A stretch of DNA of 64,000 nt from Acidimicrobiales bacterium (lineage in GTDB: Bacteria; Actinomycetota; Acidimicrobiia; Acidimicrobiales; Acidimicrobilacustridaceae), in NCBI GenBank assembly GCA_037478855.1, contig JBBFLY010000005.1, forward strand, positions 206 through 64,205, given 5' to 3'. Numbering within the stretch: position 1 is the first letter of the stretch; every line of letters begins with the position of its first letter. A program made the position numbers and the translations under genes. The notes beneath the pieces were generated by a model. The model saw nothing but the letters and a program-made list of their open reading frames with translations. It was not told the origin of the DNA and did no database searches. Shown one piece after another: positions 967 to 59,831 of the stretch.

Positions 967-986
967 CCCTGACACAGATGTCAGGT
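967..986. promoter_or_regulatory. Palindromic operator box 1: ccc TGACA caga TGTCA ggt
   Basis: Lies between the divergent starts of the FGGY kinase (893, -) and the PaaK-like ligase (1008, +). A TACGCT -10-like hexamer sits at about 993-998, just before the GTG start. Confidence 0.7.
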
Positions 987-1007
987 TCGAGAGTACGCTA
1001 GAGGGCC

Positions 1008-2321
1008 GTGCCGACCTACCAACCGGGCGTGCTCGGTCCGCTCCCCCGCGACCCCGACCAGCAGTTCTGGGACCCCGAGATGCAGACGATGCCACGCGAG
1101 CAACTCGAGGCGCTGCAGCTCGAGCGGCTCCGCACGCTGGTCGACCGGGCGCTGAGCACCCCCGTGCCGCTCTTTGCCCGCAAGCTTCGCGAGGCGGGGA
1201 TCGAATCCGGTGCAGACCTCACCAGCGTGGGAGACGTGAACCTCATCCCCACGACGGTCAAGCAGGAGCTTCGCGACTCGGAAGCTGAGCATCCCCCCTT
1301 CGGCGACTACCGCTTCACCAACCCACGGAAGTGCGTCCGGCTCGGCCAGAGCACGGGCACCACCGGCACACCCACCATCGCGCTGTTCACCCGCAAGGAC
1401 ATCTGGATCGAGTACGAGTCCGCGGCACGGGTGTGGTGGCGGAACGGCTGGCGCCCAGGGCAGATCATCACCCACGCCCACCCCGCCTACCTCTACGGCG
1501 GCGGCGTGATGCTCTCCGGCAGCCTCGAGTACTTCGGGGCGCTGAACCTGTGGGTTCCCCCACCCGACACCGACGAGCTCGCCGAGCAGGGCATCAGGAT
1601 GTGGCAGCGGGTGCGGCCCGACGTGTCGATGGTGGCGTTCAGCCTCGGTCGCTTCCAGGAGGTGGCTGCCAAGATGGGGCTCGACCTGAACGCGGACGTC
1701 GGTCTGCCGTCGTTCCAACTTCGGGGCGCGAGCGAGCGGGGCCTGCCGCTGATGACCGCCGGTCTCGAGTGCTACGCCTACTCGTCAGGTCCCTGCGGCG
1801 TCGCACCCGGCGGCCACATCCACGAGGACTGGGCGATCATTCAGGCCGTCGACCCCAGGACCGGCCGCGACGTGCCCGACGGGGAGTGGGGAAACCTGGT
1901 GGTCACCACCCTCGATCGCGACAACGGCCTGCTGCGCTACGACCTGGAAGAGGCCGCGGCGATCATCCGGGAGCCCTGCCCCTGCGGTGAGACCACCATC
2001 CGGGGCTTCTGGGGTGGTCGGTTCAAGGACTTCCTCGACTGCCAGGGCAGGTACTTCCCGATCAACGACGTCGAGCGAGCCCTGCGCACCGTGCGCGAGG
2101 TCGTCGAACCGTCCCTCGAGTACGTGGTGGTCAGACCGACGGATCCCGCCGCGCCGCTCTCCGTGCGGGTCGAGCTGGCCGACGGTCACGCCCCCACGGT
2201 GGCCGAGCGCTGCGCCGCCGCGATCCGCGAGCAGCTCGGGGTCGAAGCCCGGATCGACGTGCTGCCCCGCGGGTCGCTCGGCCGCTCGGGCTACAAAGCC
2301 ATCCGGCTCGTCGAGAGCTGA
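1008..2321 (+). CDS. Phenylacetate-CoA ligase-like (PaaK / coenzyme F390 synthetase family) adenylate-forming enzyme
   Basis: 437-aa ORF. The N-terminus FWDPEMQTMPREQLEALQLERLRTLVDRAL and the stretch RLGQSTGTTGTPT resemble PaaK-family ligases. Confidence 0.7.
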   Translation: MPTYQPGVLGPLPRDPDQQFWDPEMQTMPREQLEALQLERLRTLVDRALSTPVPLFARKLREAGIESGADLTSVGDVNLIPTTVKQELRDSEAEHPPFGDYRFTNPRKCVRLGQSTGTTGTPTIALFTRKDIWIEYESAARVWWRNGWRPGQIITHAHPAYLYGGGVMLSGSLEYFGALNLWVPPPDTDELAEQGIRMWQRVRPDVSMVAFSLGRFQEVAAKMGLDLNADVGLPSFQLRGASERGLPLMTAGLECYAYSSGPCGVAPGGHIHEDWAIIQAVDPRTGRDVPDGEWGNLVVTTLDRDNGLLRYDLEEAAAIIREPCPCGETTIRGFWGGRFKDFLDCQGRYFPINDVERALRTVREVVEPSLEYVVVRPTDPAAPLSVRVELADGHAPTVAERCAAAIREQLGVEARIDVLPRGSLGRSGYKAIRLVES

Positions 2322-2371
2322 GCAGCACCATCGGACGCTCGGACATCCGCCCGGCCGCAGCCGCGACACGA

Positions 2372-7693: not shown

Positions 7694-7713
7694 ACCTGAC
7701 ACAGACGTCAGAT
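7694..7713. promoter_or_regulatory. Palindromic operator box 2: acc TGACA caga CGTCA gat
   Basis: Lies 33 bp upstream of the aldolase start (7661, -), between it and the stop of the upstream ACAD gene. Confidence 0.7.
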
Positions 7714-7751: not shown

Positions 7752-8903
7752 TCACCTCCTGGGCAGGCCGAGCACGCGCTCAGCCACGATGTTGCGGTTC
7801 ACCTCGCTGGTGCCCCCGGCGATCGACAGCGACCGCGACTGGGCCAGCTCGTCGGCCCAGGGGCCGCTGAGCGCAGCCATGCCGAGGACGTCGATCGCCA
7901 CCTCGCCGAGGAGCTGACCGGTGGCCGACCAGGCGAGCTTGATGATGCTCGACTCGGGTCCCGGCGCTGCGCCCGACGCAGCGGCGGCGATGGTGCGCTC
8001 GCCCAGCAGACGCAACAGCTCACCCGAGCACCACAGCGCCACCAGCCGGTCCCGGGCGAGCGGATCGGCCGTGGCGCCGGCCGCCCGGGCCTCCTCGAGC
8101 AGCTGGGCGATGCGTCGCCGCAGCGCAAGGTGCAGGGTGGCCACCCCGACCCGTTCGTTAGCGAGCGTGGCCGTGGCCACCCGCCAGCCCTGGTGCTCCT
8201 CGCCGAGCCGGGCGCTCACGGGCACACGCACGTGGTCGAAGAACAGCTCGTTGAACTCGGCGGTACCGACCATGGTCCGCAGCGGCCGCACCTCGATGCC
8301 AGGGCTGCGCATGTCCACCAGCAGCGCCGTGATGCCGGCGTGGCGGTTCGCCGAGGAAGGATCGGTGCGCACGAGCAGCTCGCACCAGTCGGCCACCGAC
8401 GCGAGCGTCGTCCAGAGCTTGCGGCCGGTCACGACGTAGTGGTCGCCGTCGCGCACGGCTTCGCACCGCAGGGAAGCCAGGTCCGACCCGGCGTCAGGCT
8501 CGGAGAACCCCTGGCACCAGATCTCGTCCCCGCGCAGCATCGGCGGCAGGTACCGGGCCTGCTGCTCGGGGGTCCCGAAGGCCATGATGGCGGGGGCGAT
8601 GTTCGGGATCCCGATGGCGTTGACGGGTCCGGGCGCGTCGGCGGCCGCCAGCTCCTCGGCGTGCGCGATCTGCTCGAGGACCCCGGCGTCGCGCCCACCC
8701 CAGGCCCGTGGCCAGCCCGGTGCAGCGTGGCCGGCGTCAGCGAGCGAGGCGTTCCACTCCCGGAGGCGAGCGAGGTGATCCGGATCGGGCGCGCCGTGGA
8801 ACCTGAGTCCCCGGTGGCGGTCCGTCAGGTGATCCGCCAGCCAGGCCCGCAGCTCGGCCCGGTAGGCGTCGGCGGCGGCGACGGCGTCGGGGTCGAGGCC
8901 CAT
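7752..8903 (-). CDS. Acyl-CoA dehydrogenase (long type)
   Basis: Track ORF 7752..8987. The likely start is MGLDPDAV (ATG at 8903). Motifs seen: GWPRAWGGRD, CQGFSEPDAGSDLASL, TLANERVG, IAGGTSEVNRNIVAERVLGLPR. Confidence 0.8.
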   Translation of the reverse strand: MGLDPDAVAAADAYRAELRAWLADHLTDRHRGLRFHGAPDPDHLARLREWNASLADAGHAAPGWPRAWGGRDAGVLEQIAHAEELAAADAPGPVNAIGIPNIAPAIMAFGTPEQQARYLPPMLRGDEIWCQGFSEPDAGSDLASLRCEAVRDGDHYVVTGRKLWTTLASVADWCELLVRTDPSSANRHAGITALLVDMRSPGIEVRPLRTMVGTAEFNELFFDHVRVPVSARLGEEHQGWRVATATLANERVGVATLHLALRRRIAQLLEEARAAGATADPLARDRLVALWCSGELLRLLGERTIAAAASGAAPGPESSIIKLAWSATGQLLGEVAIDVLGMAALSGPWADELAQSRSLSIAGGTSEVNRNIVAERVLGLPRR

Positions 8904-8917: not shown

Positions 8918-8937
8918 ACCTGACATGGACGTCAGCT
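8918..8937. promoter_or_regulatory. Palindromic operator box 3: acc TGACA tgga CGTCA gct
   Basis: Lies 15 bp upstream of the ACAD start at 8903 (-). The TAACCT left flank could double as a -10 on the opposite strand. Confidence 0.7.
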
Positions 8938-9282: not shown

Positions 9283-9287
9283 TGAGC

Positions 9288-9518
9288 ATGCGTACGACGG
9301 TGACGTTCGATGACGACACCGCCCGAGCGGTCGAGCAGCTGCGCCGCGAGCGGGGGGTCGGGGTGTCGGAAGCGGTCAACGAGCTCATCCGCCGCGGCCT
9401 CGTGCAGCGTCCGCAACGGGCGGCGTTTCGTCAGCAGACACGCCGGCTGGGGCTCACCATCGACGTGTCGAACGTGGCCGAGGCGCTCGAGGTGCTCGAA
9501 GGGCCCCGGTCGCGCTGA
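9288..9518 (+). CDS. vapB: Type II antitoxin, ribbon-helix-helix (VapB/CopG-like)
   Basis: 76 aa, MRTTVTFDDDTARAVEQLRRERGVGVSEAVNELIRRGL, a typical RHH N-terminus. The stop overlaps the start of the PIN gene (TGATG). Confidence 0.8.
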   Translation: MRTTVTFDDDTARAVEQLRRERGVGVSEAVNELIRRGLVQRPQRAAFRQQTRRLGLTIDVSNVAEALEVLEGPRSR

Positions 9519-11353: not shown

Positions 11354-11373
11354 TCCTGACGTTCATGTCAGCA
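11354..11373. promoter_or_regulatory. Palindromic operator box 4: tcc TGACG ttca TGTCA gca
   Basis: Fills the 11-bp gap between the longest thiolase ORF (-) and the SDR ORF (+). The SDR track ATG (11365) lies inside the box, and an alternative ATG lies at 11383. Confidence 0.7.
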
Positions 11374-13237: not shown

Positions 13238-13257
13238 CCCTGACGTCTACGTCAGAG
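13238..13257. promoter_or_regulatory. Palindromic operator box 5: ccc TGACG tcta CGTCA gag
   Basis: Centred in the 63-bp divergent region between the hydrolase (-) and the acyl-CoA ligase (+, ATG 13277). Confidence 0.7.
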
Positions 13258-18758: not shown

Positions 18759-18778
18759 ACCTGACGTCGATGTCATGG
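18759..18778. promoter_or_regulatory. Palindromic operator box 6: acc TGACG tcga TGTCA tgg
   Basis: Lies in the divergent region between the SDR (start 18684, -) and the LplA-like gene. The track ATG 18775 lies inside the box, and TAGGTT follows immediately. Confidence 0.7.
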
Positions 18779-22918: not shown

Positions 22919-24004
22919 TCAGATCACTCGTCCGCCGGACTCGATCCGCTCTCGCAGCAGTGAGGCCAGCCGCCGCCGGTGGAAGACCGCGTCGCCGAAC
23001 GCCCGCTCATCGAGCTGCGAGCGCTTGAGGAACAGGTGCACATCGGACTCCCACGTGAAGCCGATGCCCCCGTGCACCTGCAGGGTCGACGCAGTGACCC
23101 GGCGGGCCGCGTCGGAGCACCACGTCTTGGCAGTCGACGCGGCGATCGACCGGTCCGGGTCGTCGGCTGCCACGCACCACGCCGCGTAGTACACGCAGGA
23201 TCGCATCCCCTCCACGTCGACCAGCATGTCCGCGCAGCGGTGCTTCACCGCCTGGAAGGAGCCGATCGGGCGGCCGAACTGCTCCCGCTGCTTGGCGTAG
23301 GCGACGGCGAGATCGAGCGAGCGCGCGGCGATGCCCAGCAGCTCGGCCGCATACGCCGTGGCCCCGAGGTCGCCGAAGCGCTCCAGCGCATCGGCACCCC
23401 CGATGCGCAGCGCGGGCGTCCGATCGAAGACCAACCACCCCACCTCGCGTGTCCGGTCCATCGCCGGCTCAGCGGTCGGTCGCACACCGTCGCGGAGATC
23501 GACTGCGAACACCGCGTCCGGCGAACGCACGACCGCCACATCAGCCGACGGCGCGTACACCGCAGGCTCGGCGCGACCGGTCAGCACCCACCCGTCGCCC
23601 GCCGGCTCCGCAGCGACCGGCGACCACGCAATGGTGGCGATCGACGCTCCGCTGACGAGCGGCTGGATCCACTCCGGCGCCGCCTCCGACAGCATCGCGA
23701 GGGCGACGATCTGCTGGAGCACGGGCGCTGGTGCCACGTGGGCACCGACCTGTTCGAGCAGCACCGCGACCTCGACGAACCCGAGGCCGAGCCCGCCGAG
23801 CGCCTCGGGGAGGGCAACGGCGGTCCAGCCCTGCTCGACCATCGCCGCCCACAGCTCGGGGTCGTACCCGCCACCGGCGTCGACGACCGCCCGCACCCTG
23901 GTCGACGACGCGTAGCCGCCGAGCAGCTCGCGGGCCGCGTCGCGCAACGCGAGCTGCTCGTCCGAGAGCTCGAAGTCCACCACCAGACGATACCTGACGC
24001 TCAT
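22919..24004 (-). CDS. Acyl-CoA dehydrogenase family protein, short type (candidate non-catalytic partner subunit)
   Basis: Within track ORF 22919..24682. The sequence runs ...VVDFELSDEQLALRDAARELL...FQAVKHRCADM...QVHGGIGFTWESDVHLFLKRSQ. ATG 24004 lies inside operator box 7, and GTG 23980/23983 (V)DFELSDEQ is the more typical ACAD start. Confidence 0.75.
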   Translation of the reverse strand: MSVRYRLVVDFELSDEQLALRDAARELLGGYASSTRVRAVVDAGGGYDPELWAAMVEQGWTAVALPEALGGLGLGFVEVAVLLEQVGAHVAPAPVLQQIVALAMLSEAAPEWIQPLVSGASIATIAWSPVAAEPAGDGWVLTGRAEPAVYAPSADVAVVRSPDAVFAVDLRDGVRPTAEPAMDRTREVGWLVFDRTPALRIGGADALERFGDLGATAYAAELLGIAARSLDLAVAYAKQREQFGRPIGSFQAVKHRCADMLVDVEGMRSCVYYAAWCVAADDPDRSIAASTAKTWCSDAARRVTASTLQVHGGIGFTWESDVHLFLKRSQLDERAFGDAVFHRRRLASLLRERIESGGRVI

Positions 24005-24011
24005 GTCAGCC
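23992..24011. promoter_or_regulatory. Palindromic operator box 7: acc TGACG ctca TGTCA gcc
   Basis: Lies in the divergent region between the short ACAD (-) and the long ACAD (+, ATG 24044). Confidence 0.7.
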
Positions 24012-28938: not shown

Positions 28939-28958
28939 ACCTGACACGGATGTTAGTT
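28939..28958. promoter_or_regulatory. Palindromic operator box 8: acc TGACA cgga TGTTA gtt (one core mismatch)
   Basis: Lies in the divergent region between the short ACAD (start 28879, -) and the long ACAD (ATG 28967, +), ending 9 bp before the latter. Confidence 0.6.
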
Positions 28959-31408: not shown

Positions 31409-31428
31409 AACTGACATGAGCGTCAGGT
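31409..31428. promoter_or_regulatory. Palindromic operator box 9: aac TGACA tgag CGTCA ggt, followed by an extra half-site (aaGGTCAGG)
   Basis: Lies in the 58-bp divergent region between the thiolase (31381, -) and the ADP-forming acyl-CoA synthetase (31440, +). Confidence 0.7.
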
Positions 31429-37768: not shown

Positions 37769-37788
37769 GGCTGACACCCATGTCAGCA
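37769..37788. promoter_or_regulatory. Palindromic operator box 10a: ggc TGACA ccca TGTCA gca
   Basis: Starts 20 bp upstream of the amidohydrolase start (37749, -). It is the first of two boxes separated by 2 bp. Confidence 0.7.
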
Positions 37789-37790: not shown

Positions 37791-37810
37791 ACCTGACATC
37801 AGCGTCAACT
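37791..37810. promoter_or_regulatory. Palindromic operator box 10b: acc TGACA tcag CGTCA act
   Basis: Tandem with box 10a, inside the operon between the SDR stop (37913) and the amidohydrolase start. Confidence 0.7.
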
Positions 37811-39260: not shown

Positions 39261-39280
39261 ACGTGACGCTGATGTCAGGT
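39261..39280. promoter_or_regulatory. Palindromic operator box 11: acg TGACG ctga TGTCA ggt
   Basis: Lies in the divergent region between the MaoC hydratase operon (-) and the SDR/crotonase operon (+, ATG 39318). Confidence 0.7.
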
Positions 39281-41146: not shown

Positions 41147-41830
41147 TCATGCTGCGGGGTGGAAGAACCCCCGCTGCGCGATGCGAGCGAGCGTGTCGGC
41201 CAGCTCATCGTCGCCGAAGGGAAGGTCGCGGGAGGTCACGAAGTAGGTGGAGCGCTCGATCATCGCGAGCAGTGCAGCTCCGGCCAGCTCGAGATCGGGC
41301 TGGTCACCTCGGACCTCGCGCAGACGTGTGACCAGCGAGCCGGTGATCTCCGTGAACGCCTTGGCGCCAAGCCGGGCCAGGTCGCGACTGGTCACCTGAT
41401 CCTCCATCCAGGCCCGGATCACCACCCCGTAGCGGCGGTAGGTGGCGATGAAGGCCGACAGCCACTCCCGCAGCACCTCCACGCCGGGCTCACCCGGTGG
41501 AACCGGGCTGAGCGACGAGGCCAGGTCGGTCATCTCCTCCGCACACTGCACGGCGAGCGCCCGGAACAGATCCTCCTTGTTGGAGAAGTACAGGTAGAAG
41601 GTGCCGTGGGAGACCTTCGCCACGCGCACCACATCGTCGACACGGGCCGCGTGATACCCCTTCTCGGCCAGCACCTGCATGCCGGCCGCGAGCAGTGCGG
41701 CCATCGTGCGCCGACCCTGGCTGCGCAGCTCCCTCCCGGCCGTGGGCGAGCCGGACGCCCCGCCACCACGGCGGACACGGACCTGCTCGGTTCCCGAGTT
41801 GCCGCTTCGCGCCATGGCCACCTCCTGCAA
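41147..41830 (-). CDS. TetR-family transcriptional regulator (paralogue A)
   Basis: 227 aa with an Arg-rich N-terminal tail, then the HTH region GYHAARVDDVVRVAKVSHGTFYLYFSNKEDLF. It is collinear with 59085..59768. Confidence 0.85.
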   Translation of the reverse strand: MQEVAMARSGNSGTEQVRVRRGGGASGSPTAGRELRSQGRRTMAALLAAGMQVLAEKGYHAARVDDVVRVAKVSHGTFYLYFSNKEDLFRALAVQCAEEMTDLASSLSPVPPGEPGVEVLREWLSAFIATYRRYGVVIRAWMEDQVTSRDLARLGAKAFTEITGSLVTRLREVRGDQPDLELAGAALLAMIERSTYFVTSRDLPFGDDELADTLARIAQRGFFHPAA

Positions 41831-48024: not shown

Positions 48025-48050
48025 CGCGGCAGTATCGCAGATCAACCTGA

Positions 48051-48070
48051 ACATGACAGTAGCGTCAGGT
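48051..48070. promoter_or_regulatory. Palindromic operator box 12: aca TGACA gtag CGTCA ggt, with an extra AACCTGA half-site just upstream (48044-48050)
   Basis: Lies in the 63-bp divergent region between the etfBA start (48024, -) and the 2-hydroxyacid dehydrogenase start (GTG 48082/48088, +). Confidence 0.65.
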
Positions 48071-48087
48071 TCTGCGAGGCTGTGGGC

Positions 48088-50944: not shown

Positions 50945-51712
50945 TCAGCGCAGGGCGCCCGGCTCGTCGAGCCAGCGGTTGAGCGCGCGGGTGCGGGCGT
51001 TGCGCAGGGTGAAGCACTGGATGACCGCAGTGCGCACGCGGTGCTGGACGTGTGCGGAGGTGACGACCTTGCGCAGCAGGTAGTCGGCCGCGTCGCCGTG
51101 GTCCTCCTCCGCGTACGCGTGCACCCGGAAGTTCTCGACGTCGAGCCCGTAGTGGTCGCGCATGCCCTCGTAGAGCAGCTTGGCGTAGCCCGTCGACGCG
51201 GCGAAGCGCTCGCCCGCCCACCCGAAGGCTGCGAGACCCTCCTCGTAGGAGCGGCGCATGTAGTAGAGACTGCCGAGCACCAGCCCGATGGTCTCGGGCA
51301 TGGGCACGAAGCTGACCAGCTCCTCGTCCGGGATGCCGAGCATCCGAGCCCATTCGACCTTCATGTCCACGTGGTTGCGGTCGCCGGTGAAACCCGTCTC
51401 GTCCGCCAGGTTCTGCAACCAGTGGTGGAAGTGCTCGCTCGACTCCATGTCGAGGGCGTCGAAGTCCGGGGCGTTGGAGACCAGCGACCCGAACTCCGAG
51501 GTGTACCAGACGCCGAGGTAGTAGTACTCCTTGCAGAGCCGCCGAAGGTACTCGAGCGACAGCGTCCCGTCGGCCACGTGCTCCCACACCCGGTTGCGCT
51601 CGGTGCAGATCTCGGCCTGGATCTTCTCGAGCTCGTTCATGAACTCGTCCACCGGCAAGGCCTCAGCCGTGCCGCCCCTGCGGATGTCCTTGAACTCACG
51701 GGCCTGGCTCAT
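50945..51712 (-). CDS. TenA/PqqC-like (haem-oxygenase-like fold, iron-containing redox enzyme family) protein
   Basis: 255 aa, all-helical and His/Glu/Asp-rich: SEHFHHWLQNLADETG...HVDMKVEWARMLGI...VHAYAEEDHGDAADYLL. Confidence 0.5.
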   Translation of the reverse strand: MSQAREFKDIRRGGTAEALPVDEFMNELEKIQAEICTERNRVWEHVADGTLSLEYLRRLCKEYYYLGVWYTSEFGSLVSNAPDFDALDMESSEHFHHWLQNLADETGFTGDRNHVDMKVEWARMLGIPDEELVSFVPMPETIGLVLGSLYYMRRSYEEGLAAFGWAGERFAASTGYAKLLYEGMRDHYGLDVENFRVHAYAEEDHGDAADYLLRKVVTSAHVQHRVRTAVIQCFTLRNARTRALNRWLDEPGALR

Positions 51713-51767
51713 GGGAAGAGACCTCCTCGATCGCCCGGAGGACGCCCCCGGGCCCGGTGTTAGACTT

Positions 51768-51787
51768 TTATGACACGAACGTCAGCT
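51768..51787. promoter_or_regulatory. Palindromic operator box 13: tta TGACA cgaa CGTCA gct
   Basis: Lies in the divergent region between the PqqC-like gene (51712, -) and hyuB-like (ATG 51862, +). Confidence 0.65.
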
Positions 51788-51861
51788 TCGTGGCAAGCTT
51801 CGCAGGTCAGGGGTCGGGCACGGGCGACGGCCCGGTGCCCCGAACCAGGGGGGAGCCGCAG

Positions 51862-53736
51862 ATGCACGTCGACCTGGTCAGGCTGGCAGGGAGCAGGGGT
51901 CGCCTGGTCGAGCACACCACCGTCGACCCCGTCACCGCCGAGGTCATCCGGGACTACCTGGAGACCGTCTGCTTCGAGATGGCCACGTACGTCTCGCGCA
52001 CCGCCACCACCCCGATCCTCAACCAGAGCAACGAGCGCAACGCGACCATCCTCGACGCGCAGGGCAGGCTCGCCGCCCTCTCGGTGGGGATCCCGCAGTT
52101 CATGCTGACCTCCACGCTGCCGGTGCGCTTCGCGCTCGAGTTCCTCGGCGTCGACGAGTTCCGTGAGGGTGACGTTTTCGCCGCCAACGACCCTTACCAC
52201 GGCGGAGGCCACCTCCCCGACTACAACGTGTTCGCACCCGTCTTCGCCGACGACCCGGCTGCGCCGAGCGGCCGGAGAATGGTGCTGATCGCCAGCATCC
52301 AGTGCCACCACGGCGACACCGGCGGCGCGGTGCCGGGGGGCTACAACGTGACCGCCAACGACGTGTGGGGCGAAGGCGTCCGCTGGCCGGTGCTGAAGGT
52401 GGTCGATCAGGGACGCGAGCGGCGCGACGTGCTCTACGCGCTGCAGGCGAACAACCGCCTGCCCGACTACCTCGGCGACCTCCGGGCCCAGATCGGCGCC
52501 GCGCAGCTCGCCGCCAAGCGCCTCGGTGAGCTGCTGGACCGGTGGGGCGCAGCCACGGTCGAGCAGTCGGTCGACTACATGATCGACTACGCGGCGAGGC
52601 GCTTCCGTGAGGAGGTGCGCAGCTGGCCCGACGGGGTGTACGAGGCCGACACCTACGTCGACCACGACCCCCTCGGCCACCCGGACGTGCACCTGCACGT
52701 CAAGGTCACCGTCGCCGGGGATCGGCTCACGATCGACTTCACCGGTTCCGACGACCGTCAGGAGCTGCAGGCCTGGTCGACGTTCGGCAACACCCGCGGC
52801 TACACGGTCGGCCAGATCGCCGCGATGATGGATCCGGAGATCCCGAAGAACGAGGGGTTCTTCGACTCGATCGAGCTCATCGTGCCGCAGGGCTGCGTGC
52901 TCAACCCCCATCCGGGCAGACCGGTCAGCGCGGGCACCCACCATCCGGGAGCCGAGGTCGGAGAGGTCATCGCGCTCGCCATGCAGCATGTGCTGCCGGA
53001 CAAGGCCGTCCCGCAGGTGTACAAGACCGGCATCCCGACGATCATCACCGGCATCGACCCGAGGACCGGACAACCCTTCACCGACCACTCGGCGGAGGTG
53101 TACGCGGGCTGGTGCAACGCCGCGAAGGGCATGGACGCCTGGGGCTGCCAGGCCGCCGCGTTCGGGAACCTCTGGAAGGCGACCGCCGAGATCAACGAGA
53201 GCCTCTACCCGCACATCCAGTGGAGCCGCGACTACCGCACCGACTCCGGCGGCCCCGGCCAGTGGCGGGGCCTGTGCGGCAGCCACTACGTGAAGGAGGT
53301 CCGGGTCGACGCCAAGGTCTACACCTACGTGGTGGGCATGAAGTACCCGATGCCCGGCATCGCGGGTGGCAAGCCGGGTGCGCCCAACAAGCTCACGATC
53401 CGCTGGGGCAGCGACGACCCCTACGTGGTCGAGCACACGGCGAACTGGGTGCCGATGAGCGCCGGGGAGAAGATCAACTACGACTACGGCGGCGGAGGCG
53501 GCTGGGGTGATCCTCTCGATCGCGACCCCCGGGCGGTGCTCGACGACGTGCTCGACGAGTACGTCTCCGTCGAAGGTGCCGAGCGCGACTACGGCGTCGT
53601 GCTACGGGGCTCGCTCGCCGATCTCACCCTCGAGATCGACGAGGCCGCCACGGCAGAGCTGCGGGCGTCCCGACGAGTACGAGCGCCGGGACAGCCCGAC
53701 GGAGGGGTCTTCGGCGAGACCGAGTGGGAAGGGTGA
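51862..53736 (+). CDS. Hydantoinase B/oxoprolinase (HyuB) family subunit
   Basis: Within track ORF 51757..53736. ATG 51862 is preceded by GGGGGGAG. It has DPVTAEVIRDYLETVCFEMATYVSRTATTPILNQSNERN and NDPYHGGGHLPDYNVFAPVF. Confidence 0.8.
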   Translation: MHVDLVRLAGSRGRLVEHTTVDPVTAEVIRDYLETVCFEMATYVSRTATTPILNQSNERNATILDAQGRLAALSVGIPQFMLTSTLPVRFALEFLGVDEFREGDVFAANDPYHGGGHLPDYNVFAPVFADDPAAPSGRRMVLIASIQCHHGDTGGAVPGGYNVTANDVWGEGVRWPVLKVVDQGRERRDVLYALQANNRLPDYLGDLRAQIGAAQLAAKRLGELLDRWGAATVEQSVDYMIDYAARRFREEVRSWPDGVYEADTYVDHDPLGHPDVHLHVKVTVAGDRLTIDFTGSDDRQELQAWSTFGNTRGYTVGQIAAMMDPEIPKNEGFFDSIELIVPQGCVLNPHPGRPVSAGTHHPGAEVGEVIALAMQHVLPDKAVPQVYKTGIPTIITGIDPRTGQPFTDHSAEVYAGWCNAAKGMDAWGCQAAAFGNLWKATAEINESLYPHIQWSRDYRTDSGGPGQWRGLCGSHYVKEVRVDAKVYTYVVGMKYPMPGIAGGKPGAPNKLTIRWGSDDPYVVEHTANWVPMSAGEKINYDYGGGGGWGDPLDRDPRAVLDDVLDEYVSVEGAERDYGVVLRGSLADLTLEIDEAATAELRASRRVRAPGQPDGGVFGETEWEG

Positions 53737-55799
53737 TGGGATACCGCATCGGCGTCGATGTCGGTGGCACGTTCACCGACTTGGTCTGCATCTCCCCCGA
53801 GGGGCAGGTGGTGCTGGACAAGACGCCCACCACCGTCGAGGACCAGTCCATCGGCGTGATGAACGGGCTGGCCCAGCTCGCGACCAGGTTTGGGCTCACG
53901 ACCGGCGAGCTGTGCCGGCAGCTCGAGCTCCTCGTGCACGGCACCACCGTCGCTGACAACACGATGATCGAGATGAACGGTGCACCCGTGGGACTGCTGG
54001 TCACCGAGGGACACCGCGACGAGATCGAGATGCGACGGGTGCACAAGGAGCGGATCTGGGACCCGTCGTATCCGGCTCCCCCTCCGATCGCCCGCCGACG
54101 GGCCCGCATCCCGATCCCCCAGCGGCACGCCTTCGACGGCGAGGAGCTCCTCGCGCTCGACGAGCAGGCGGTGCGAGCAGGCGTGCGCCGCCTGAAGAAG
54201 CTCGGTTGCACCTCCATCGCGGTGATGTACCTGTTCTCGTTCGTCAACCCCGAGCATGAGCTGCGCACCCGGGAGATCATCCGCGAGGAGTACCCCGACG
54301 CCGAGCACATCTCGCTCTCGCACGAGGTGATGGCCCGCGGCCCCGAGTTCGAGCGGGTGTCGACCACGCTGGTCAACGCCTACGTCGCGCCGCGCATCGC
54401 CCGGTACATCACGAACCTCTCCGAGAAGCTGCGCACGGCCGGCTACGAAGGTCCGTTGCTGATCATACAGTCCACCGGCGGGGTGATGCCCCCCGAGTAC
54501 GTCTCCCGACGGGCGGTGAGCCTGCTCGGCTCGGGCCCGACCGGCGGGGTGATGGGGGCCGCCATCGCCGCCCGGGCCGCTGACGCCCCGGACTTCGTGG
54601 CCGTGGACATGGGGGGCACCAGCTTCGACCTCTGTCTGGTGCGGAACGGGCGCCCGCAGATCAAGACCGACTGGAACTGGCGATATCGCTACTACATCGG
54701 GATGCCGATGGTGGATGTGCAGTCCGTCGGCGCCGGAGGCGGATCGATCGCCCGGGTGCGCCAGGGGGCGCTGCTGGTTGGGCCGGAGTCGGCGGGCTCC
54801 ACCCCGGGACCGGTCTGCTACGGCCGCGGTGGTGACCGCCCGACCGTCACCGACGCCAACGTGGTGCTCGGCTACCTCCCCACCGAGGGCTTCGCTGGCG
54901 GACGCATGACCCTCGACGTCGAGGCCGCCCGGGCGGCCATCGCCCGCGACATCGCCGAGCCGCTCGGGCTGGACGTGACGGCCGCTGCGTGGGGGATCGA
55001 GCGCATCGTGAACGCCAACATGGCCAACGCCACCCGCAAGGTGCTCGCAGGGTACGGGGCCGACCCGCGCGAGCTGGCGATGATCGCCTACGGCGGCAAC
55101 GGCGCCGTCCATGCCTGGGCCATCGCCGCCGAACTCGACATCCGACGAGTGATCATCCCGAAGACCGCCCCGGTGTTCTCGGCGCTCGGGGTGCTGGTGG
55201 CCGACTACGTCGTCGACGTGATGCGCTCCTACGTCGTGCCGCTCTCACAGGTTGACCTGACACATCTCCGGACCCTCATGCACGAGGTCGACGATGAGGT
55301 CGCCAGGGAGCTCGAGCCGGCGGGCCTGGCAGCAGAGGCGGTCCACACCGACCTCTTCGTGCAGATGGCCTACGCAGGACAGAACTTCGACATGAGCGTG
55401 CCCGTGCCCGAAGGCACCGACCTCGACGAGCCCGGTCTGCTGGACCTGGCCGACCGCTTCCACGACCTCCACGAGGCTGACCGGGGCTTCGCCTTCCGCA
55501 ACCAGCAGCCGCTGGTGCGCGGGATCCGCCTGACGGCCAGGGGCTACACCCCCAAGCCCAACCGCCTCGGTGAGGCCGGCGCGGTCACCGACCCGGCCGA
55601 GGCGATGATTGCCTGTCGGCCTGCCTACTTCGGTGGAGGCTTCTTGGACACACCGGTCTACGACGGTTCGGTGCTCGGCGTGGGGGCCACCATCTGCGGG
55701 CCGGCCCTCATCGAGGACCCCTTCACCGTCGTGGTCGTGCCGCCGGGCTCCACCTGCCGGCTCGCGCCGCATCTCGGCTACGAGCTCACCACGACCTGA
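53736..55799 (+). CDS. Hydantoinase A/oxoprolinase (HyuA) family subunit
   Basis: MGYRIGVDVGGTFTDLV... (ATG overlaps the hyuB stop, TGATG), followed by ...AVDMGGTSFDLCLV. The track ORF starts 12 nt earlier at a GTG. Confidence 0.8.
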   Translation: MGYRIGVDVGGTFTDLVCISPEGQVVLDKTPTTVEDQSIGVMNGLAQLATRFGLTTGELCRQLELLVHGTTVADNTMIEMNGAPVGLLVTEGHRDEIEMRRVHKERIWDPSYPAPPPIARRRARIPIPQRHAFDGEELLALDEQAVRAGVRRLKKLGCTSIAVMYLFSFVNPEHELRTREIIREEYPDAEHISLSHEVMARGPEFERVSTTLVNAYVAPRIARYITNLSEKLRTAGYEGPLLIIQSTGGVMPPEYVSRRAVSLLGSGPTGGVMGAAIAARAADAPDFVAVDMGGTSFDLCLVRNGRPQIKTDWNWRYRYYIGMPMVDVQSVGAGGGSIARVRQGALLVGPESAGSTPGPVCYGRGGDRPTVTDANVVLGYLPTEGFAGGRMTLDVEAARAAIARDIAEPLGLDVTAAAWGIERIVNANMANATRKVLAGYGADPRELAMIAYGGNGAVHAWAIAAELDIRRVIIPKTAPVFSALGVLVADYVVDVMRSYVVPLSQVDLTHLRTLMHEVDDEVARELEPAGLAAEAVHTDLFVQMAYAGQNFDMSVPVPEGTDLDEPGLLDLADRFHDLHEADRGFAFRNQQPLVRGIRLTARGYTPKPNRLGEAGAVTDPAEAMIACRPAYFGGGFLDTPVYDGSVLGVGATICGPALIEDPFTVVVVPPGSTCRLAPHLGYELTTT

Positions 55800-57233: not shown

Positions 57234-59000
57234 TCAGAGGTCCCAGAACCGTTCCCGACCAGCGCGCACGAACCGCTCGTGCAGCTCCCGTTCGTCGCGC
57301 TGGGTGAAGGGACGGTAGCGGTCCTCGCCGCGACCCCGGATGAGCAGCAGGTCGTCACCGACCCGATCGTGCCGGAACTTCTCGTGCACCAGGCTGCGCT
57401 TGAGGATCTTGTTGGTGCCGGTGGTGGGAAGCTCTCTCGCCACCCGCAGGTAGCGCGGACGCCACTTGGGGCCGATGTCGTCGAGGGAGTCCAGCCATCC
57501 GGCGAAGGCCGCGCCGTCGAGCGTCGCGCCCTCCCGTAGCACCAACGCCGCCATGACCTGGTCGCCCGCCTGCTCGTCGGGCACCCCGTACACGCAGGCC
57601 ACGACGACATCGGGGTGACGGCTCAGCGCGGCCTCGATGGGAGCGGCGGGGAAGTTCTCGCCGTCGACCCGGATCCAGTCCGTGTTGCGACCAGCGAAGT
57701 ACACGTTGCGGTCCTCGTCCATGTAGCCGAGGTCACCGCTCCAGTACCAGCCCCGTCGGGTGGTGGTCGCGGTCGCCTCAGGGTTGTTGTAGTACCCCTC
57801 GAACGGCCCGGCTCCGGCGGTGCTCACGATCTCCCCGATGCACTCCTCGGCGTTCAGCAGACGACCCTGCTCGTCGAAGCGGGCGGGTGGCAGCTCGTTG
57901 CCCTCCTCGTCGACGATCCTGATGTGCGCTGGTGCGATGCCCATCGCCCCGGGCTTGACCGGCCCGTCACGGTTGAGGCTGATCCCACCCTCGGTGGCCC
58001 CGAAGGCGTCGATGACCTCGTCGACCCCGAAGCGTCGACGGAAGGCCTCGACGACCTCGGATGATCCTTCGTTGCCGAACGCGATGCGCAACGTGTTCTC
58101 CGCGTCGTCGGGCCGCTCGGGGGTGGCTACCAGGTAGGACAGGGGCTTGCCGGTGTAGTTGAAGTAGGTGGCCCGGTACCGGCGGACGTCCTCGAGCCAC
58201 CCCGACGCGGTGAACCTGCGGGCCAGCCCCACCGCGCAGCCGTACACGAGCGACGGCATCCAACCGACCATCACCGCGTTGGAGTGGAACAGCGGCATGC
58301 TCACGTAGCCCACGTCGTCCGGCCCGAGGCCGAGCAGCAGCCCGAGGCGGGTCCCGGTGACCAGCAGACGCCGCTGGCTGCAGATCACCGCCTTGGGGGC
58401 GGACGACGTCCCGGAGGTGAAGATGAGCGCCCAGGTCGTCGCCGGGTCGGGCTGCGCACCGTCGTCGATCGCCTCAAACCTCTCGAGTGCGTCGTCGAGG
58501 TCGACTCCGACCGTCGGGGCGCGCTCGGCCGGGGAAGCGAAGCGTGAGGACACCAGGATGCGGTCGGGCCCGAACGGCAGGTCGCCGAGGAGAGGTTCGA
58601 TCCGGGGCAGGTGCGCTGGCTCGGTCACGAGCATCGCCACGTCGGTGTGGAGCATGTCGCGCAGCAGGTGCTCCCCCTGGCGGGTGTGGTTCAGGCCGAC
58701 GACGGCCGCGCCGGCGAACGCCGCGCCGCCGAAGGCGAAGAGGTAGTCGGGCGTGTTGTCAAGCAGGACCGCCACGTGCGGTGGACGCCCCTGTGGCAGC
58801 CACGCCCGCAGCAGACCGGCCCAGCGGAGGGACTCGTCGACGAACTGGGCGTGGGTCCAGACCTGCTCTCCGAAGAGCACCGCGGGGCGGGTTGCGATCC
58901 CGGGATCATGCCGGTTGCGGCGCAGCAGGGCGGCGGCGTTCTCCGCAGGCGGCACGGCCTGACCCGGCTCGGGGATCGATCGGGACGGGGAAGCCGGCAC
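57234..59000 (-). CDS. Long-chain-type AMP-dependent acyl-CoA synthetase
   Basis: Track ORF 57234..59063 reads through operator box 14. In-frame GTG 59000 or TTG 59009 are more plausible starts. It has LIFTSGTSSAPKAVICS and WYWSGDLGYMDEDRNVYFAGRNTDWIRVDGENF. Confidence 0.8.
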   Translation of the reverse strand: MPASPSRSIPEPGQAVPPAENAAALLRRNRHDPGIATRPAVLFGEQVWTHAQFVDESLRWAGLLRAWLPQGRPPHVAVLLDNTPDYLFAFGGAAFAGAAVVGLNHTRQGEHLLRDMLHTDVAMLVTEPAHLPRIEPLLGDLPFGPDRILVSSRFASPAERAPTVGVDLDDALERFEAIDDGAQPDPATTWALIFTSGTSSAPKAVICSQRRLLVTGTRLGLLLGLGPDDVGYVSMPLFHSNAVMVGWMPSLVYGCAVGLARRFTASGWLEDVRRYRATYFNYTGKPLSYLVATPERPDDAENTLRIAFGNEGSSEVVEAFRRRFGVDEVIDAFGATEGGISLNRDGPVKPGAMGIAPAHIRIVDEEGNELPPARFDEQGRLLNAEECIGEIVSTAGAGPFEGYYNNPEATATTTRRGWYWSGDLGYMDEDRNVYFAGRNTDWIRVDGENFPAAPIEAALSRHPDVVVACVYGVPDEQAGDQVMAALVLREGATLDGAAFAGWLDSLDDIGPKWRPRYLRVARELPTTGTNKILKRSLVHEKFRHDRVGDDLLLIRGRGEDRYRPFTQRDERELHERFVRAGRERFWDL

Positions 59001-59011
59001 GGTCGACAATT

Positions 59012-59031
59012 CTATGACACTGATGTCAGAT
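59012..59031. promoter_or_regulatory. Palindromic operator box 14: cta TGACA ctga TGTCA gat
   Basis: Lies immediately upstream of the fadD-like/ACAD operon (-). It is the first of two boxes in the 85-bp region shared with the divergent TetR gene. Confidence 0.7.
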
Positions 59032-59045: not shown

Positions 59046-59065
59046 GCCTGACACCTCCGTCACGT
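59046..59065. promoter_or_regulatory. Palindromic operator box 15: gcc TGACA cctc CGTCA cgt
   Basis: Ends 20 bp upstream of the GTG start (59085) of TetR paralogue B. Confidence 0.65.
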
Positions 59066-59084
59066 TCCTTTAGCCTCGTGGGCC

Positions 59085-59768
59085 GTGCCAACCCGCAAGA
59101 AGGCCGCCGCCACCACCCGAGCCGCCAGCCCGACCCGCGAGGGTGATGCACCGCCCGTACCTGGTCGCGCCGGCGCGCCGGCCCAACGCCGGGAGCTGCG
59201 CGCCCGCGGCAAGCGAACCATGCGCAAGCTCCTCGACGCGGGCATCCAGGTCTTCGCCCGTCGGGGCTACCACGCGGCCCGAGTCGACGACATCGTGAAG
59301 GCCGCGAGGACCAGTCACGGCACCTTCTACCTCTACTTCGCCAACAAGGAGGACCTCTTCCAGGCACTGGTGGCCGATGTCGCGGAGGAGCTCGCCGCCC
59401 TGCGCGACTCGCTCGGCCCGGTCACGCCCGACGACGCCGGTCTGGCGAAGCTGCGGGCATGGCTCGACCGGTTCGCCGCGATGTATGAGCACTACGGTCC
59501 GATCATCCGGACCTGGACCGAAGCCGAGGTCGGCACGAGCGATGTCGGGCGGCTCGGAACCGACGTGATCGGTGAGCTGGCCGGCGCACTGACGGAGGCG
59601 ACCACCGGCGGGGCAGCTGAGCTCGACCCCACCATCGCGTCGATGGCCCTGATCGCGATGGTCGAGCGGCTCAACTACTTCGTGCTCTCCGGGCAGATCG
59701 ACGCGAACCGCGACCAGATGGTGGACACGCTCGCCGGCGTCGTGCACCGGGTGCTGTTCACCCCCTGA
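59085..59768 (+). CDS. TetR-family transcriptional regulator (paralogue B), candidate regulator of the palindromic boxes
   Basis: 227 aa with an Arg/Ala-rich N-terminal tail, then GYHAARVDDIVKAARTSHGTFYLYFANKEDLF. Two boxes lie in its own upstream region. Confidence 0.85.
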   Translation: MPTRKKAAATTRAASPTREGDAPPVPGRAGAPAQRRELRARGKRTMRKLLDAGIQVFARRGYHAARVDDIVKAARTSHGTFYLYFANKEDLFQALVADVAEELAALRDSLGPVTPDDAGLAKLRAWLDRFAAMYEHYGPIIRTWTEAEVGTSDVGRLGTDVIGELAGALTEATTGGAAELDPTIASMALIAMVERLNYFVLSGQIDANRDQMVDTLAGVVHRVLFTP

Positions 59769-59811
59769 CCACACGCAGGGAGACGTCACCACCCACCGGG
59801 GGACGACCGGT

Positions 59812-59831
59812 TGCTGACACAAACGTCAGAT
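59812..59831. promoter_or_regulatory. Palindromic operator box 16: tgc TGACA caaa CGTCA gat
   Basis: Ends 61 bp upstream of the ABC substrate-binding protein ATG (59892). Confidence 0.7.

What the first reader, a model, noticed from the sequence alone, without database searches (positions are those of the whole stretch)
967..59831. 17 copies of a 20-bp palindrome (core TGACR-N4-YGTCA, flanks near AACC...GGTT) mark nearly every promoter region of a >55-kb CoA-thioester catabolic supercluster
**Occurrences.** Reading the intergenic regions, I find the core TGACR-N4-YGTCA at 967, 7694, 8918, 11354, 13238, 18759, 23992, 28939 (one mismatch), 31409, 37769, 37791, 39261, 48051, 51768, 59012, 59046 and 59812.

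**Position.** Every copy is intergenic and sits at a 5' gene end. Nine lie in short divergent regions of about 25-150 bp and so could control both directions.

**Enrichment.** With equal base frequencies, an 8-fixed plus 2-twofold-degenerate palindrome is expected about 0.25 times in 64 kb, and less in GC-rich DNA. Sixteen exact hits is far above that.

**Downstream genes.** They are acyl-CoA ligases, ACAD pairs, thiolases, Ltp/DUF35, MaoC, crotonases, SDRs, amidohydrolases, EtfBA, HyuBA, an LplA-like ligase and a Liv-type importer.

**Comparison with known operators.** The motif is not the KstR (TnnAACnnGTTnnA) or KstR2 (AnCAAGnnCTTGnT) operator known for actinobacterial steroid regulons. I do not recognise it as a described operator.

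**Limitation.** I scanned by eye, so copies inside coding regions may have been missed.
Basis: partly seen in the sequence, partly recalled or inferred. Interest (0 to 1): 0.85.

Follow-up and report, generated by a model that had tools for sequence, protein, structure and literature searches.

The report
TetR operator of a lipid-catabolism regulon
A short palindrome repeated 17 times in this Acidimicrobiia genome segment is most likely the docking site of a TetR-type repressor that controls many genes for breaking down fatty-acid-like compounds; this is a familiar kind of switch, but I found no earlier description of this site or this regulator family.

Summary
TGACR-N4-YGTCA occurs 16 times exactly and once with one mismatch in 64 kb, against 0.38 expected. 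A position-weight matrix separates these 17 sites (18-32 bits) from everything else (10 bits or less).

All 17 sites are intergenic. They occupy 12 of 14 divergent gaps and 3 tandem upstream gaps, and none of the 11 convergent gaps.

The window comes from an Acidimicrobiia genome. It encodes two paralogous TetR regulators. TetR-B (59085-59768) has two sites upstream and one downstream.

In 80 related loci (1.27 Mb) the matrix finds 176 sites, against 0-1 in reversed or shuffled controls. None lies in a convergent gap. The sites recur at the same orthologous promoters: TetR-B itself (48 of 61 loci), the Liv transporter, acyl-CoA ligase, SDR/MaoC, acyl-CoA dehydrogenase (ACAD) and amidohydrolase genes. 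All seven orthologues of an ADP-forming acyl-CoA synthetase that have upstream DNA, fetched without reference to TetR, also carry it.

Best reading: this is the operator of an autoregulated TetR repressor, probably released by an acyl-CoA, that controls a CoA-thioester catabolic regulon conserved across the class. It is analogous to KstR or FadR but has a different motif and a different protein subfamily.

It is a new member of a known kind. Binding and ligand are untested.

The parts
967..986 (.). Operator site 1 (core 970-983). Lies in the divergent gap between the FGGY kinase (-) and the PaaK-like CoA ligase (+).
   Evidence: (30.6 bits).
7694..7713 (.). Operator site 2 (core 7697-7710). 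Lies upstream of the aldolase_II / Amidohydro_2 operon (-).
   Evidence: (31.3 bits).
8918..8937 (.). Operator site 3 (core 8921-8934). Lies 17 bp upstream of the ACAD gene 7752-8903 (-) and abuts a TAGGAT hexamer.
11354..11373 (.). Operator site 4 (core 11357-11370). Fills the 29-bp divergent gap between thiolase (-) and SDR (+).
13238..13257 (.). Operator site 5 (core 13241-13254). Lies in the divergent gap between the alpha/beta hydrolase (-) and the acyl-CoA ligase (+).
18759..18778 (.). Operator site 6 (core 18762-18775). Lies in the divergent gap between the SDR (-) and the LplA-like/SDR/ligase operon (+).
23992..24011 (.). Operator site 7 (core 23995-24008). Lies between the divergent ACAD pair 22919-23980 (-) and 24044-25240 (+).
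28939..28958 (.). Operator site 8 (core 28942-28955, one mismatch, GTTA). Lies between the divergent ACAD pair 27785-28879 (-) and 28967-30184 (+).
   Evidence: (30.6 bits).
31409..31428 (.). Operator site 9 (core 31412-31425). Lies in the divergent gap between thiolase (-) and the ADP-forming acyl-CoA synthetase / Ltp / DUF35 operon (+).
   Evidence: All 7 orthologous ADP-ACS loci that include upstream DNA keep a PWM site there, 6 of them with an exact core.
37769..37788 (.). Operator site 10 (core 37772-37785). Proximal member of a tandem pair upstream of the two Amidohydro_2 genes (-).
37791..37810 (.). Operator site 11 (core 37794-37807). Distal member of the pair, centred 22 bp from site 10.
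39261..39280 (.). Operator site 12 (core 39264-39277). Lies in the divergent gap between the MaoC-like hydratase/SDR (-) and SDR/enoyl-CoA hydratase (+).
   Evidence: 32.2 bits. The SDR/MaoC gap carries a site in 13 related loci.
48051..48070 (.). Operator site 13 (core 48054-48067). Lies in the divergent gap between the fused EtfBA (-) and the 2-hydroxyacid dehydrogenase / aldolase_II operon (+).
51768..51787 (.). Operator site 14 (core 51771-51784). Lies between the CADD-like gene (-) and HyuB/HyuA (+).
   Evidence: A site upstream of HyuB is also present in L042.
59012..59031 (.). Operator site 15 (core 59015-59028). Abuts a TAGAAT hexamer upstream of the acyl-CoA ligase 57234-59009 (-).
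59046..59065 (.). Operator site 16 (core 59049-59062). The core ends 8 bp upstream of the TAGCCT hexamer of the TetR-B promoter.
59812..59831 (.). Operator site 17 (core 59815-59828). Lies upstream of the Liv-type ABC transporter operon (+).
   Evidence: The Liv SBP promoter carries a site in 36 related loci.
59085..59768 (+). TetR-B, the candidate cognate repressor (227 aa from GTG 59085). It includes a conserved Arg-rich N-terminal arm.
   Evidence: PF00440. The orthologue family is large. The alignment shows an invariant SHGTFYLYF helix and a conserved arm. A site lies upstream in 48 of 61 orthologous loci. AF2 pLDDT is 86.
41147..41830 (-). TetR-A, a paralogue (49% identical). It has no site upstream of its own gene. 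The DNA-binding-domain consensus of its clade is nearly the same as that of the TetR-B clade. The likely start is ATG 41815.
   Evidence: None of 19 A-like loci has an upstream site.

Best explanation
The palindrome (consensus a-a-C-C-TGAC-RY-NN-RY-GTCA-G-G-t-t) is the operator of a TetR-family repressor subfamily specific to Acidimicrobiia. The window carries two members, TetR-B and its paralogue TetR-A.

A TetR dimer would place one helix-turn-helix on each TGACR half-site; the half-site centres are about 9-10 bp apart. The sites lie in very short 5' intergenic gaps, so a bound dimer overlaps the core promoter and blocks RNA polymerase. In divergent gaps it would block both directions at once.

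TetR-B represses its own gene, the adjacent acyl-CoA ligase and the Liv-type importer. It also represses at least a dozen further operons of CoA-thioester catabolism: ligases, heteromeric ACAD pairs, thiolases, Ltp/DUF35, MaoC and crotonase hydratases, SDRs, amidohydrolases, EtfBA and HyuAB.

Release is most likely triggered by an acyl-CoA made by the co-regulated ligases.

Shown here: the motif, its exclusive 5' intergenic placement, its conservation at orthologous promoters across the class, and its linkage to the TetR-B clade. Inferred: physical binding, repression rather than activation, and the acyl-CoA ligand.
For: Enrichment: 16 exact hits against 0.38 expected. The PWM leaves a gap between 18 and 10 bits.

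Placement: all 17 sites fall in the 5.7% of the window that is intergenic. They fill 12 of 14 divergent gaps and 0 of 11 convergent gaps.

The non-catabolic genes in the window lack the site: FtsK-like, RHH/PIN, GGDEF-EAL, SBP_5 and MFS.

Related loci: 176 PWM hits in 1.27 Mb, against 0 in reversed and 1 in shuffled sequence. Of these, 120 are in divergent gaps, 42 in tandem upstream gaps, 0 in 135 convergent gaps, and 6 are nominally coding.

The targets recur: TetR-B 52 sites, Liv SBP 36, ligase 34, SDR 21, ACAD 17, MaoC 13, amidohydrolase 6.

Regulator link: 48 of 61 TetR-B-like loci have a site within 300 bp upstream, against 0 of 19 TetR-A-like loci. TGAC-N6-GTCA is the top gapped palindrome upstream of TetR-B orthologues (33 of 61; background palindromes reach 14 at most).

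Independent target: all 7 ADP-ACS orthologues with 58-72% identity that have upstream DNA carry a PWM site there, 6 of them with an exact core. Homologues with 39% identity or less, from other genomes, show 3 exact cores in 499 kb, which is chance level.

Footprint: between the window and L002 the cores and the TAGCCT hexamer are conserved while the spacer DNA diverges.

Geometry at the TetR-B promoter: a TAnnnT hexamer begins 8-9 bp after the core in 41 instances among the 52 TetR-B promoter sites. In the loci shown it lies 6-9 nt before the start codon.

Fold: the AF2 model is TetR-like. The nearest solved structures include the acyl-CoA sensors B. subtilis FadR (one entry with stearoyl-CoA), FasR, B. 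halodurans FadR and SaFadR.
Against: There are no binding, expression or transcription-start data.

Thirteen of 61 TetR-B-like loci lack an upstream site at the 15-bit threshold.

TetR-A-clade proteins have nearly the same DNA-binding-domain consensus. The effective binder could therefore be TetR-A, TetR-B or both.

The structural similarity to acyl-CoA-sensing TetRs (TM about 0.6, E about 1e-5) is no better than to EthR or RutR, so the ligand class rests mainly on gene context.

Outside the TetR-B promoter I found no consistent -10 spacing. Repression by occlusion is therefore inferred from the short gaps, not demonstrated.

Many of the related loci are phylogenetically non-independent.
Confidence: 0.78

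Rival explanations
1. Both paralogue clades (TetR-A and TetR-B) read the same operator through near-identical DNA-binding domains but sense different ligands. Promoters would then integrate two signals, either by competition, by a requirement to release both repressors, or by heterodimers.
For: The arm and HTH consensus is almost the same in the A-like and B-like clades. In the window the DNA-binding part is 63% identical and the ligand domain 40%. At least 10 MAGs carry both paralogues on different contigs or at different positions. TetR-A sits inside a conserved regulated cluster whose SDR/MaoC, ACAD and amidohydrolase promoters carry the motif.
Against: TetR-A genes never have the motif upstream (0 of 19). 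The window's own TetR-A has V instead of the clade-typical T before SHGTFYLYF. There is no direct evidence on specificity.
Confidence: 0.35
2. The palindrome is bound by a different, unlinked transcription factor, and its proximity to TetR-B is coincidental. An OmpR-type response regulator is one candidate, because TGACA-N4-TGTCA is quoted as the CopR/CusR inverted repeat.
For: The core is identical to the CopR/CusR consensus quoted in PMC12428095. No binding data exist here.
Against: Pfam scans of the called genes found no response-regulator, histidine-kinase or copper-resistance domains. The site is conserved directly upstream of TetR-B orthologues in 48 of 61 loci. The targets are CoA-thioester enzymes, not metal genes.
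Confidence: 0.08
3. The element is not an operator but a promoter element in its own right. Its two half-sites (cTGACA) would be crossed -35 boxes of overlapping divergent promoters, or the target of an alternative sigma factor.
For: cTGACA resembles TTGACA. At the TetR-B promoter the distal half-site lies 17-18 bp from a conserved TAnnnT hexamer.
Against: Full palindromes with a fixed 4-bp centre also occur upstream of unidirectional operons (7697, 37772/37794, 59815). The spacing to TAnnnT is inconsistent at other targets. The non-catabolic promoters in the window lack the element. The two roles do not exclude each other.
Confidence: 0.07
4. It is a REP/MITE-like dispersed repeat with no regulatory role.
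For: It is a short palindrome present in many intergenic copies.
Against: There are no copies in convergent or 3' gaps in the window (0 of 11) or in related loci (0 of 135). The centre and flanks vary while the half-sites stay fixed. The element keeps its position at orthologous promoters in genomes where the surrounding intergenic DNA has diverged.
Confidence: 0.01

Closest known systems
KstR (Rv3574) regulon of mycobacteria
   Same: A TetR-family, autoregulated repressor. It has a 14-bp palindromic operator in many intergenic (often divergent) regions of a large lipid/steroid catabolic regulon that includes ACADs, ligases, thiolases, Ltp and MaoC. The operator overlaps promoter elements (PMC1995591).
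   Different: The operator sequence differs (TnnAACnnGTTnnA against TGACR-N4-YGTCA). TetR-B scores 24.5 bits against the NCBIfam KstR cut-off of 280. No KshA/KstD/Hsa ring-degradation genes were seen in the window. The host class is different (Acidimicrobiia). Site density is higher: 17 in 64 kb, against 16 further intergenic instances genome-wide in M. tuberculosis.
TetR-type FadR of Bacillus (YsiA; PDB 3whb/3whc, 5gp9/5gpa/5gpc)
   Same: It is the best NCBIfam and PDB sequence match over the HTH and one of the top Foldseek neighbours. It is a repressor of fatty-acid degradation released by long-chain acyl-CoA.
   Different: The NCBIfam score is 50.8 bits against a cut-off of 200, and only the HTH aligns. 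The operator is GATGAATGAAT*ACTCATTCAT and is bound by two dimers (PMC5397183). Ligand-domain identity is only about 20%.
Other actinobacterial acyl-CoA-responsive TetRs: FasR, MftR, BkaR, FdmR
   Same: They are TetR regulators of lipid metabolism that bind palindromes and respond to acyl-CoAs. FasR is a top structural neighbour.
   Different: The operators differ: MftR is T-N2-GGCA-N5-TGCC-N2-A and BkaR is GTTA-N-T-N4-A-N-TAAC. NCBIfam scores are far below the cut-offs for FasR and MftR. The FdmR operator could not be checked because the paper is not held.
CopR/CusR box (OmpR-family response regulators)
   Same: The quoted consensus TGACA-N4-TGTCA is identical to the core (PMC12428095).
   Different: The regulator family, phyla and regulon (copper) are all different. 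The Pfam scans found no two-component or copper-resistance domains here. The extended CC/GG and A/T flanks and the link to TetR-B are specific to this element.

Membership tests
TetR/AcrR-family repressor with palindromic operator | N-terminal TetR HTH domain (PF00440) | tested here: met
   TetR-B 63.3 bits and TetR-A 59.1 bits, against a cut-off of 24.
TetR/AcrR-family repressor with palindromic operator | All-helical two-domain fold with a C-terminal ligand domain | tested here: met
   The AF2 model has pLDDT 86 and 8 helices. All 50 Foldseek hits listed are TetR-family proteins.
TetR/AcrR-family repressor with palindromic operator | Operator is a short inverted repeat with half-sites about one helical turn apart | tested here: met
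   The 14-bp core TGACR-N4-YGTCA has symmetric flanks.
TetR/AcrR-family repressor with palindromic operator | Operator located at the regulator's own promoter (autoregulation) | tested here: met
   There are two sites upstream of TetR-B in the window. A site lies upstream in 48 of 61 orthologous loci, and the motif ranks first in the unbiased palindrome count.
TetR/AcrR-family repressor with palindromic operator | Protein binds the operator as a dimer and is released by a small-molecule ligand | not testable with these tools
   This needs EMSA, DAP-seq and ligand assays.
KstR / KstR2 steroid regulons | Operator TnnAACnnGTTnnA (KstR) or AnCAAGnnCTTGnT (KstR2) | tested here: not met
The motif is TGACR-N4-YGTCA. 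The KstR motif is taken from PMC1995591.
KstR / KstR2 steroid regulons | Protein orthology to KstR | tested here: not met
   NCBIfam transcr_KstR gives 24.5 bits against a cut-off of 280.
Bacillus-type TetR FadR | Protein reaches the equivalog score (NF053878) | tested here: not met
   50.8 bits against a cut-off of 200, with only residues 46-98 aligned.
Bacillus-type TetR FadR | FadR-box operator (ATGAATGA-type repeats) | tested here: not met
   The operator sequence is different.
Bacillus-type TetR FadR | Long-chain acyl-CoA as inducer | not testable with these tools
   Only context is available: co-regulated ligases, and structural neighbours that bind acyl-CoA.
REP/MITE-like intergenic repeat | Copies at 3' ends or convergent gaps, and conservation of the whole element as a unit | tested here: not met
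   0 of 11 convergent gaps in the window and 0 of 135 in related loci carry a copy. The centre and flanks vary.
CopR/CusR (OmpR-type) box | Cognate response regulator/kinase and metal-resistance targets nearby | tested here: not met
   The Pfam scans of the called genes show none. Only the core sequence coincides.
FdmR regulon of mycobacteria | FdmR operator sequence and protein orthology | not tested
   The paper PMC8072231 is not held. No FdmR sequence or model was available.

The most novel reading that the evidence does not exclude
Two anciently duplicated TetR sensors with almost identical DNA-reading heads but divergent ligand domains share one operator throughout the class Acidimicrobiia. 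Dozens of catabolic promoters would then compute a two-signal decision, requiring both ligands or using heterodimers. At some promoters the operator half-sites would also double as crossed -35 elements of overlapping divergent, largely leaderless promoters, so that one dimer silences two operons.
Probability: 0.25. Interest if true: 0.6.

Novelty: new member of a known kind. Interest (0 to 1): 0.45.

Why it matters
Acidimicrobiia are abundant in soil, freshwater, marine and wastewater communities. They are mostly uncultured, and my literature searches found no described regulon for them.

This result gives a concrete, testable regulator-operator pair that is conserved across the class. The pair defines which genes belong to one lipid/CoA-thioester catabolic programme, including poorly understood members: the LplA-like ligase, Amidohydro_2 enzymes, HyuAB, the CADD-like protein and fused EtfBA.

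It can be used to annotate MAGs, to predict substrates, and as a compact repressor/operator part for high-GC hosts.

Conceptually it extends the KstR/FadR paradigm rather than overturning it.

Tried and rejected
1. The look-up of encoding contigs on a window protein returned only a 5.4-kb Logan contig, so no ready-made annotation was available. I called genes myself from codon bias. Two long shadow ORFs had to be split: at 46.2-49.1 kb and at 22.9-25.2 kb.

2. Rfam found no RNA family in the window.

3. I looked for a separate operator for TetR-A. Its start is back-to-back with an acyl-CoA ligase (gap of roughly 0-29 bp in most loci). The conserved nucleotides there are explained by coding sequence and by a TAnnnT hexamer for the ligase. 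No second palindrome was found.

4. I tested a general rule that a -10 hexamer lies at a fixed distance from every site. The pooled histogram looked striking. The breakdown by target showed that the 8-9 bp peak comes almost entirely from the TetR-B promoter. I restrict the claim to that promoter.

5. Foldseek was used to infer the ligand. The top hits include acyl-CoA sensors, but the scores do not separate them from EthR or RutR. This is weak support only.

6. Literature: I found no paper linking this motif to a TetR. The FdmR paper is not held, and secondary papers do not give its operator.

7. In low-GC metagenome loci the PWM gives 13-19-bit hits. I attribute these to its GC-rich background model and ignored them, using exact-core counts as the control instead.
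Full report
**Observation.**
An exact scan finds 16 copies of TGACRNNNNYGTCA in the 64-kb window. The expectation is 0.38, with a maximum of 2, in 100 dinucleotide-preserving shuffles. The one-mismatch copy at 28942 (GTTA in place of GTCA) has the same flanks.

A 26-bp symmetric matrix built from the 17 sites carries 28.5 bits. The sites score 18.3-32.2 bits and the next best position in the window scores 9.9. The consensus is a/t-a-C-C-TGAC-R-Y-N-N-R-Y-GTCA-G-G-t-t/a.

**Genes and placement.**
The window is about 70% G+C and is full of shadow ORFs. I called genes from codon bias and named them with Pfam and NCBIfam. Two long ORFs each hide two real divergent genes with a site between them: EtfBA and a 2-hydroxyacid dehydrogenase around 48054, and an ACAD pair around 23995.

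All 17 sites lie in the 3.6 kb (5.7%) of intergenic DNA. A simple binomial for that outcome is about 7e-22 (my arithmetic).
- They occupy 12 of the 14 divergent gaps.
- They occupy 3 tandem gaps upstream of operons.
- They occupy none of the 11 convergent gaps.
- The site at 51771 is intergenic only if HyuB starts at ATG 51862.

Genes without a site are the non-catabolic ones: an FtsK/SpoIIIE-like protein, an RHH/PIN pair, a PAS-GGDEF-EAL protein, an SBP_5 protein and an MFS transporter.

Regulated genes include:
- four AMP-forming acyl-CoA ligases and a PaaK-like ligase;
- an ADP-forming acyl-CoA synthetase with Ltp and DUF35;
- six ACADs, four of them in two divergent pairs that resemble IpdE2/PimCD;
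- two thiolases, SDRs, MaoC and crotonase hydratases, and Amidohydro_2 proteins;
- fused EtfBA, HyuB/HyuA, aldolase_II proteins, an LplA-like protein and a Liv-type ABC importer.

**Regulator candidates.**
Two TetR-family genes are present. TetR-A is at 41147-41830 (-) and TetR-B is at 59085-59768 (+). They are 49% identical.

TetR-B has two sites in the gap it shares with a CasI/FadD17-like ligase, and one site downstream in front of the Liv operon. TetR-A has none.

Homologues of TetR-B are very numerous: 4703 with E of 1e-10 or better among the 8000 candidates scored. Where they carry names, they come from Acidimicrobiia/Acidimicrobiales MAGs. The closest genome locus is a Rhabdothermincola MAG with 81% identity.

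The family has an invariant SHGTFYLYF recognition helix. It also has a conserved Arg-rich N-terminal arm, GRAGxPAQGRELRARG.

**Comparative test.**
I fetched 80 loci (1.27 Mb) around TetR homologues from species-representative genomes.
- The exact core occurs 144 times, or 7.25 per 64 kb.
- The matrix finds 176 sites at 15 bits or more, against 0 in reversed and 1 in shuffled sequence.
- With genes called, 120 sites lie in divergent gaps and 42 in tandem upstream gaps. None lies in 135 convergent gaps.
- Six sites are nominally inside ORFs. I think these are most likely start-codon or shadow-ORF errors of my crude caller.

None of the 176 sites lies inside a tblastn match to a window protein. 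The flanking genes recur: TetR-B 52, Liv SBP 36, ligase 34, SDR 21, ACAD 17, MaoC 13, amidohydrolase 6, CADD-like 3, HyuB 1.

Sorting the loci by which paralogue they resemble gives a clean split. A site lies within 300 bp upstream in 48 of 61 TetR-B-like loci and in 0 of 19 TetR-A-like loci.

An unbiased count of all 4+4 gapped palindromes upstream of the 61 TetR-B orthologues ranks TGAC-N6-GTCA first (33 of 61). The nested GACA-N4-TGTC and ACAC-N2-GTGT follow. GC-rich background palindromes reach 14 at most.

**An independent target.**
I also fetched metagenome loci around homologues of the ADP-forming acyl-CoA synthetase, without reference to any TetR. All seven orthologues at 58-72% identity that include upstream DNA carry a matrix hit upstream, and six of them have an exact core.

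Homologues at 39% identity or less, from unrelated genomes, show 3 exact cores in 499 kb. That is 0.38 per 64 kb, the chance level.

Several MAGs carry the TetR-A cluster, with its motif-bearing SDR/MaoC, ACAD and amidohydrolase promoters, on a different contig from TetR-B. This is the pattern expected for a regulator acting in trans.

**Mechanism.**
The half-site centres are about 9-10 bp apart, which suits one TetR dimer contacting successive major grooves (my inference from the geometry of the family). The gaps are very short: 29 bp between thiolase and SDR at 11357, and 51-63 bp at several others. A bound dimer must therefore overlap the core promoters.

At the TetR-B promoter the arrangement is conserved. 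The core ends 8-9 bp before a TAnnnT hexamer in 41 instances among the 52 TetR-B promoter sites. In the window and in the four other loci where such a hexamer can be read, it lies 6-9 nt before the start codon. This implies a leaderless or nearly leaderless mRNA. It also puts the distal half-site cTGACA at -35-like spacing of 17-18 bp.

Between the window and L002, the cores and the TAGCCT hexamer are conserved while the DNA between the two sites has diverged.

At other targets a TAnnnT hexamer abuts the core at +0 to +3. Examples are ACAD 8903, ACAD 23980, ADP-ACS, aldolase 7661, LplA-like and ligase 59009. At still others it lies 17-19 bp away or is absent. I therefore claim promoter overlap in general but a fixed geometry only for TetR-B itself.

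Repression, rather than activation, is inferred from this overlap and from family behaviour.

**Ligand.**
This step is inferred. The AF2 model is confident (pLDDT 86). Its nearest solved structures include the acyl-CoA sensors B. subtilis FadR (one entry with stearoyl-CoA), FasR, B. halodurans FadR and Sulfolobus FadR.

However, the TM-scores are about 0.6 and the E-values about 1e-5. Those values are no better than for EthR or RutR.

The stronger argument is context. The regulator is conserved next to an acyl-CoA ligase and an importer. The regulon is made of CoA-thioester enzymes.

**Two paralogues.**
The consensus of the arm plus HTH is almost identical in the A-like and B-like clades. In the window the DNA-binding part is 63% identical and the ligand domain 40%.

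Both paralogues may therefore read the same operator while sensing different molecules. This is the most novel reading that the data allow, and it is untested.

**Comparison with known systems.**
The closest analogue is KstR. It is an autoregulated TetR repressor with a 14-bp palindrome in many intergenic regions of a lipid/steroid regulon (PMC1995591). Membership fails on two counts: the operator differs, and the NCBIfam KstR model gives 24.5 bits against a cut-off of 280.

Bacillus FadR is the best HTH match, but it scores 50.8 bits against a cut-off of 200 and uses a different operator.

The MftR and BkaR operators also differ. The FdmR operator could not be checked.

Literal searches for the motif found it only as the CopR/CusR inverted repeat and as an early GraR prediction. 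Both involve OmpR-type regulators in unrelated contexts. The Pfam scans found no two-component domains in this window.

**Verdict.**

The element is a new operator and regulator subfamily of a well-known kind: a TetR repressor of lipid catabolism. It is notable for its density (17 sites in 64 kb), its conservation across a poorly studied class, and the paralogue pair with a shared DNA-binding head.

It is not categorically new. Binding, ligand and regulon size remain to be measured.

Noticed in passing
window 59085-59220: Three public gene calls for TetR-B relatives (P0001, P0003 and P0006, 181-182 aa) cover only about 80% of TetR-B. P0001 is identical over that span, which is consistent with a start at ATG 59220. 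Such a start would cut off the N-terminal Arg-rich arm (GRAGxPAQGRELRARG), which is conserved across the family. GTG 59085 is the better start.
   Followed up: partly
window 41800-41850, and the A-like loci such as L063 and L071: TetR-A and an acyl-CoA ligase start back-to-back, roughly 0-29 bp apart in most loci. Each promoter must therefore lie inside the other gene. A conserved TAnnnT hexamer for the ligase sits within the first codons of TetR-A.
   Followed up: partly
window 46132-49080 and 22919-25240: Single long ORFs of 900-980 aa on both strands hide two real divergent genes each. The switch in GC3 phase coincides exactly with an operator site. This is a trap for automated gene calling in 70% GC DNA.
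   Followed up: yes
window 46252-48024 (-): The EtfB and EtfA domains are fused into one 590-aa protein. The fused gene is directly regulated by site 48054.
   Followed up: no
window 9288-9946 (+): An RHH antitoxin and PIN toxin pair is embedded in the catabolic cluster. The 384-bp gap upstream of the pair holds operator site 8921, but that site lies next to the ACAD gene, 353 bp from the RHH start.
   Followed up: no
window 22016-22918: This is a 903-bp convergent gap with weak coding signal. ORF 22476-22775 (-) begins MRGVAGVVVLGVLVAGC, which looks like a lipoprotein signal with a lipobox.
   Followed up: no
window 28942-28961: The only mismatched site (GTTA instead of GTCA) creates a TAGTTT hexamer 7 nt before the ATG of ACAD 28967. 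The mismatch may be the price of a -10 element overlapping the operator.
   Followed up: no
window 37772/37794 and 59015/59049; L002 8160/8193; L042 9909/9935; L070 18736/18763: Several promoters carry two sites with centres 22-34 bp apart. The spacing is variable. Whether binding there is cooperative is unknown.
   Followed up: no
window 43322-43371: The 3' ends of the acyl-CoA ligase (41845-43371, +) and the SBP_5 gene (43322-44986, -) overlap by 50 bp.
   Followed up: no
window 18793-22015 and 50945-55799: Unusual members of the regulon are an LplA-like ligase operon with an SDR and a ligase, a CADD/haem-oxygenase-like protein, caprolactamase-like HyuB/HyuA, and a CDGSH iron-sulfur protein. 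Their role in CoA-thioester catabolism is unclear.
   Followed up: no
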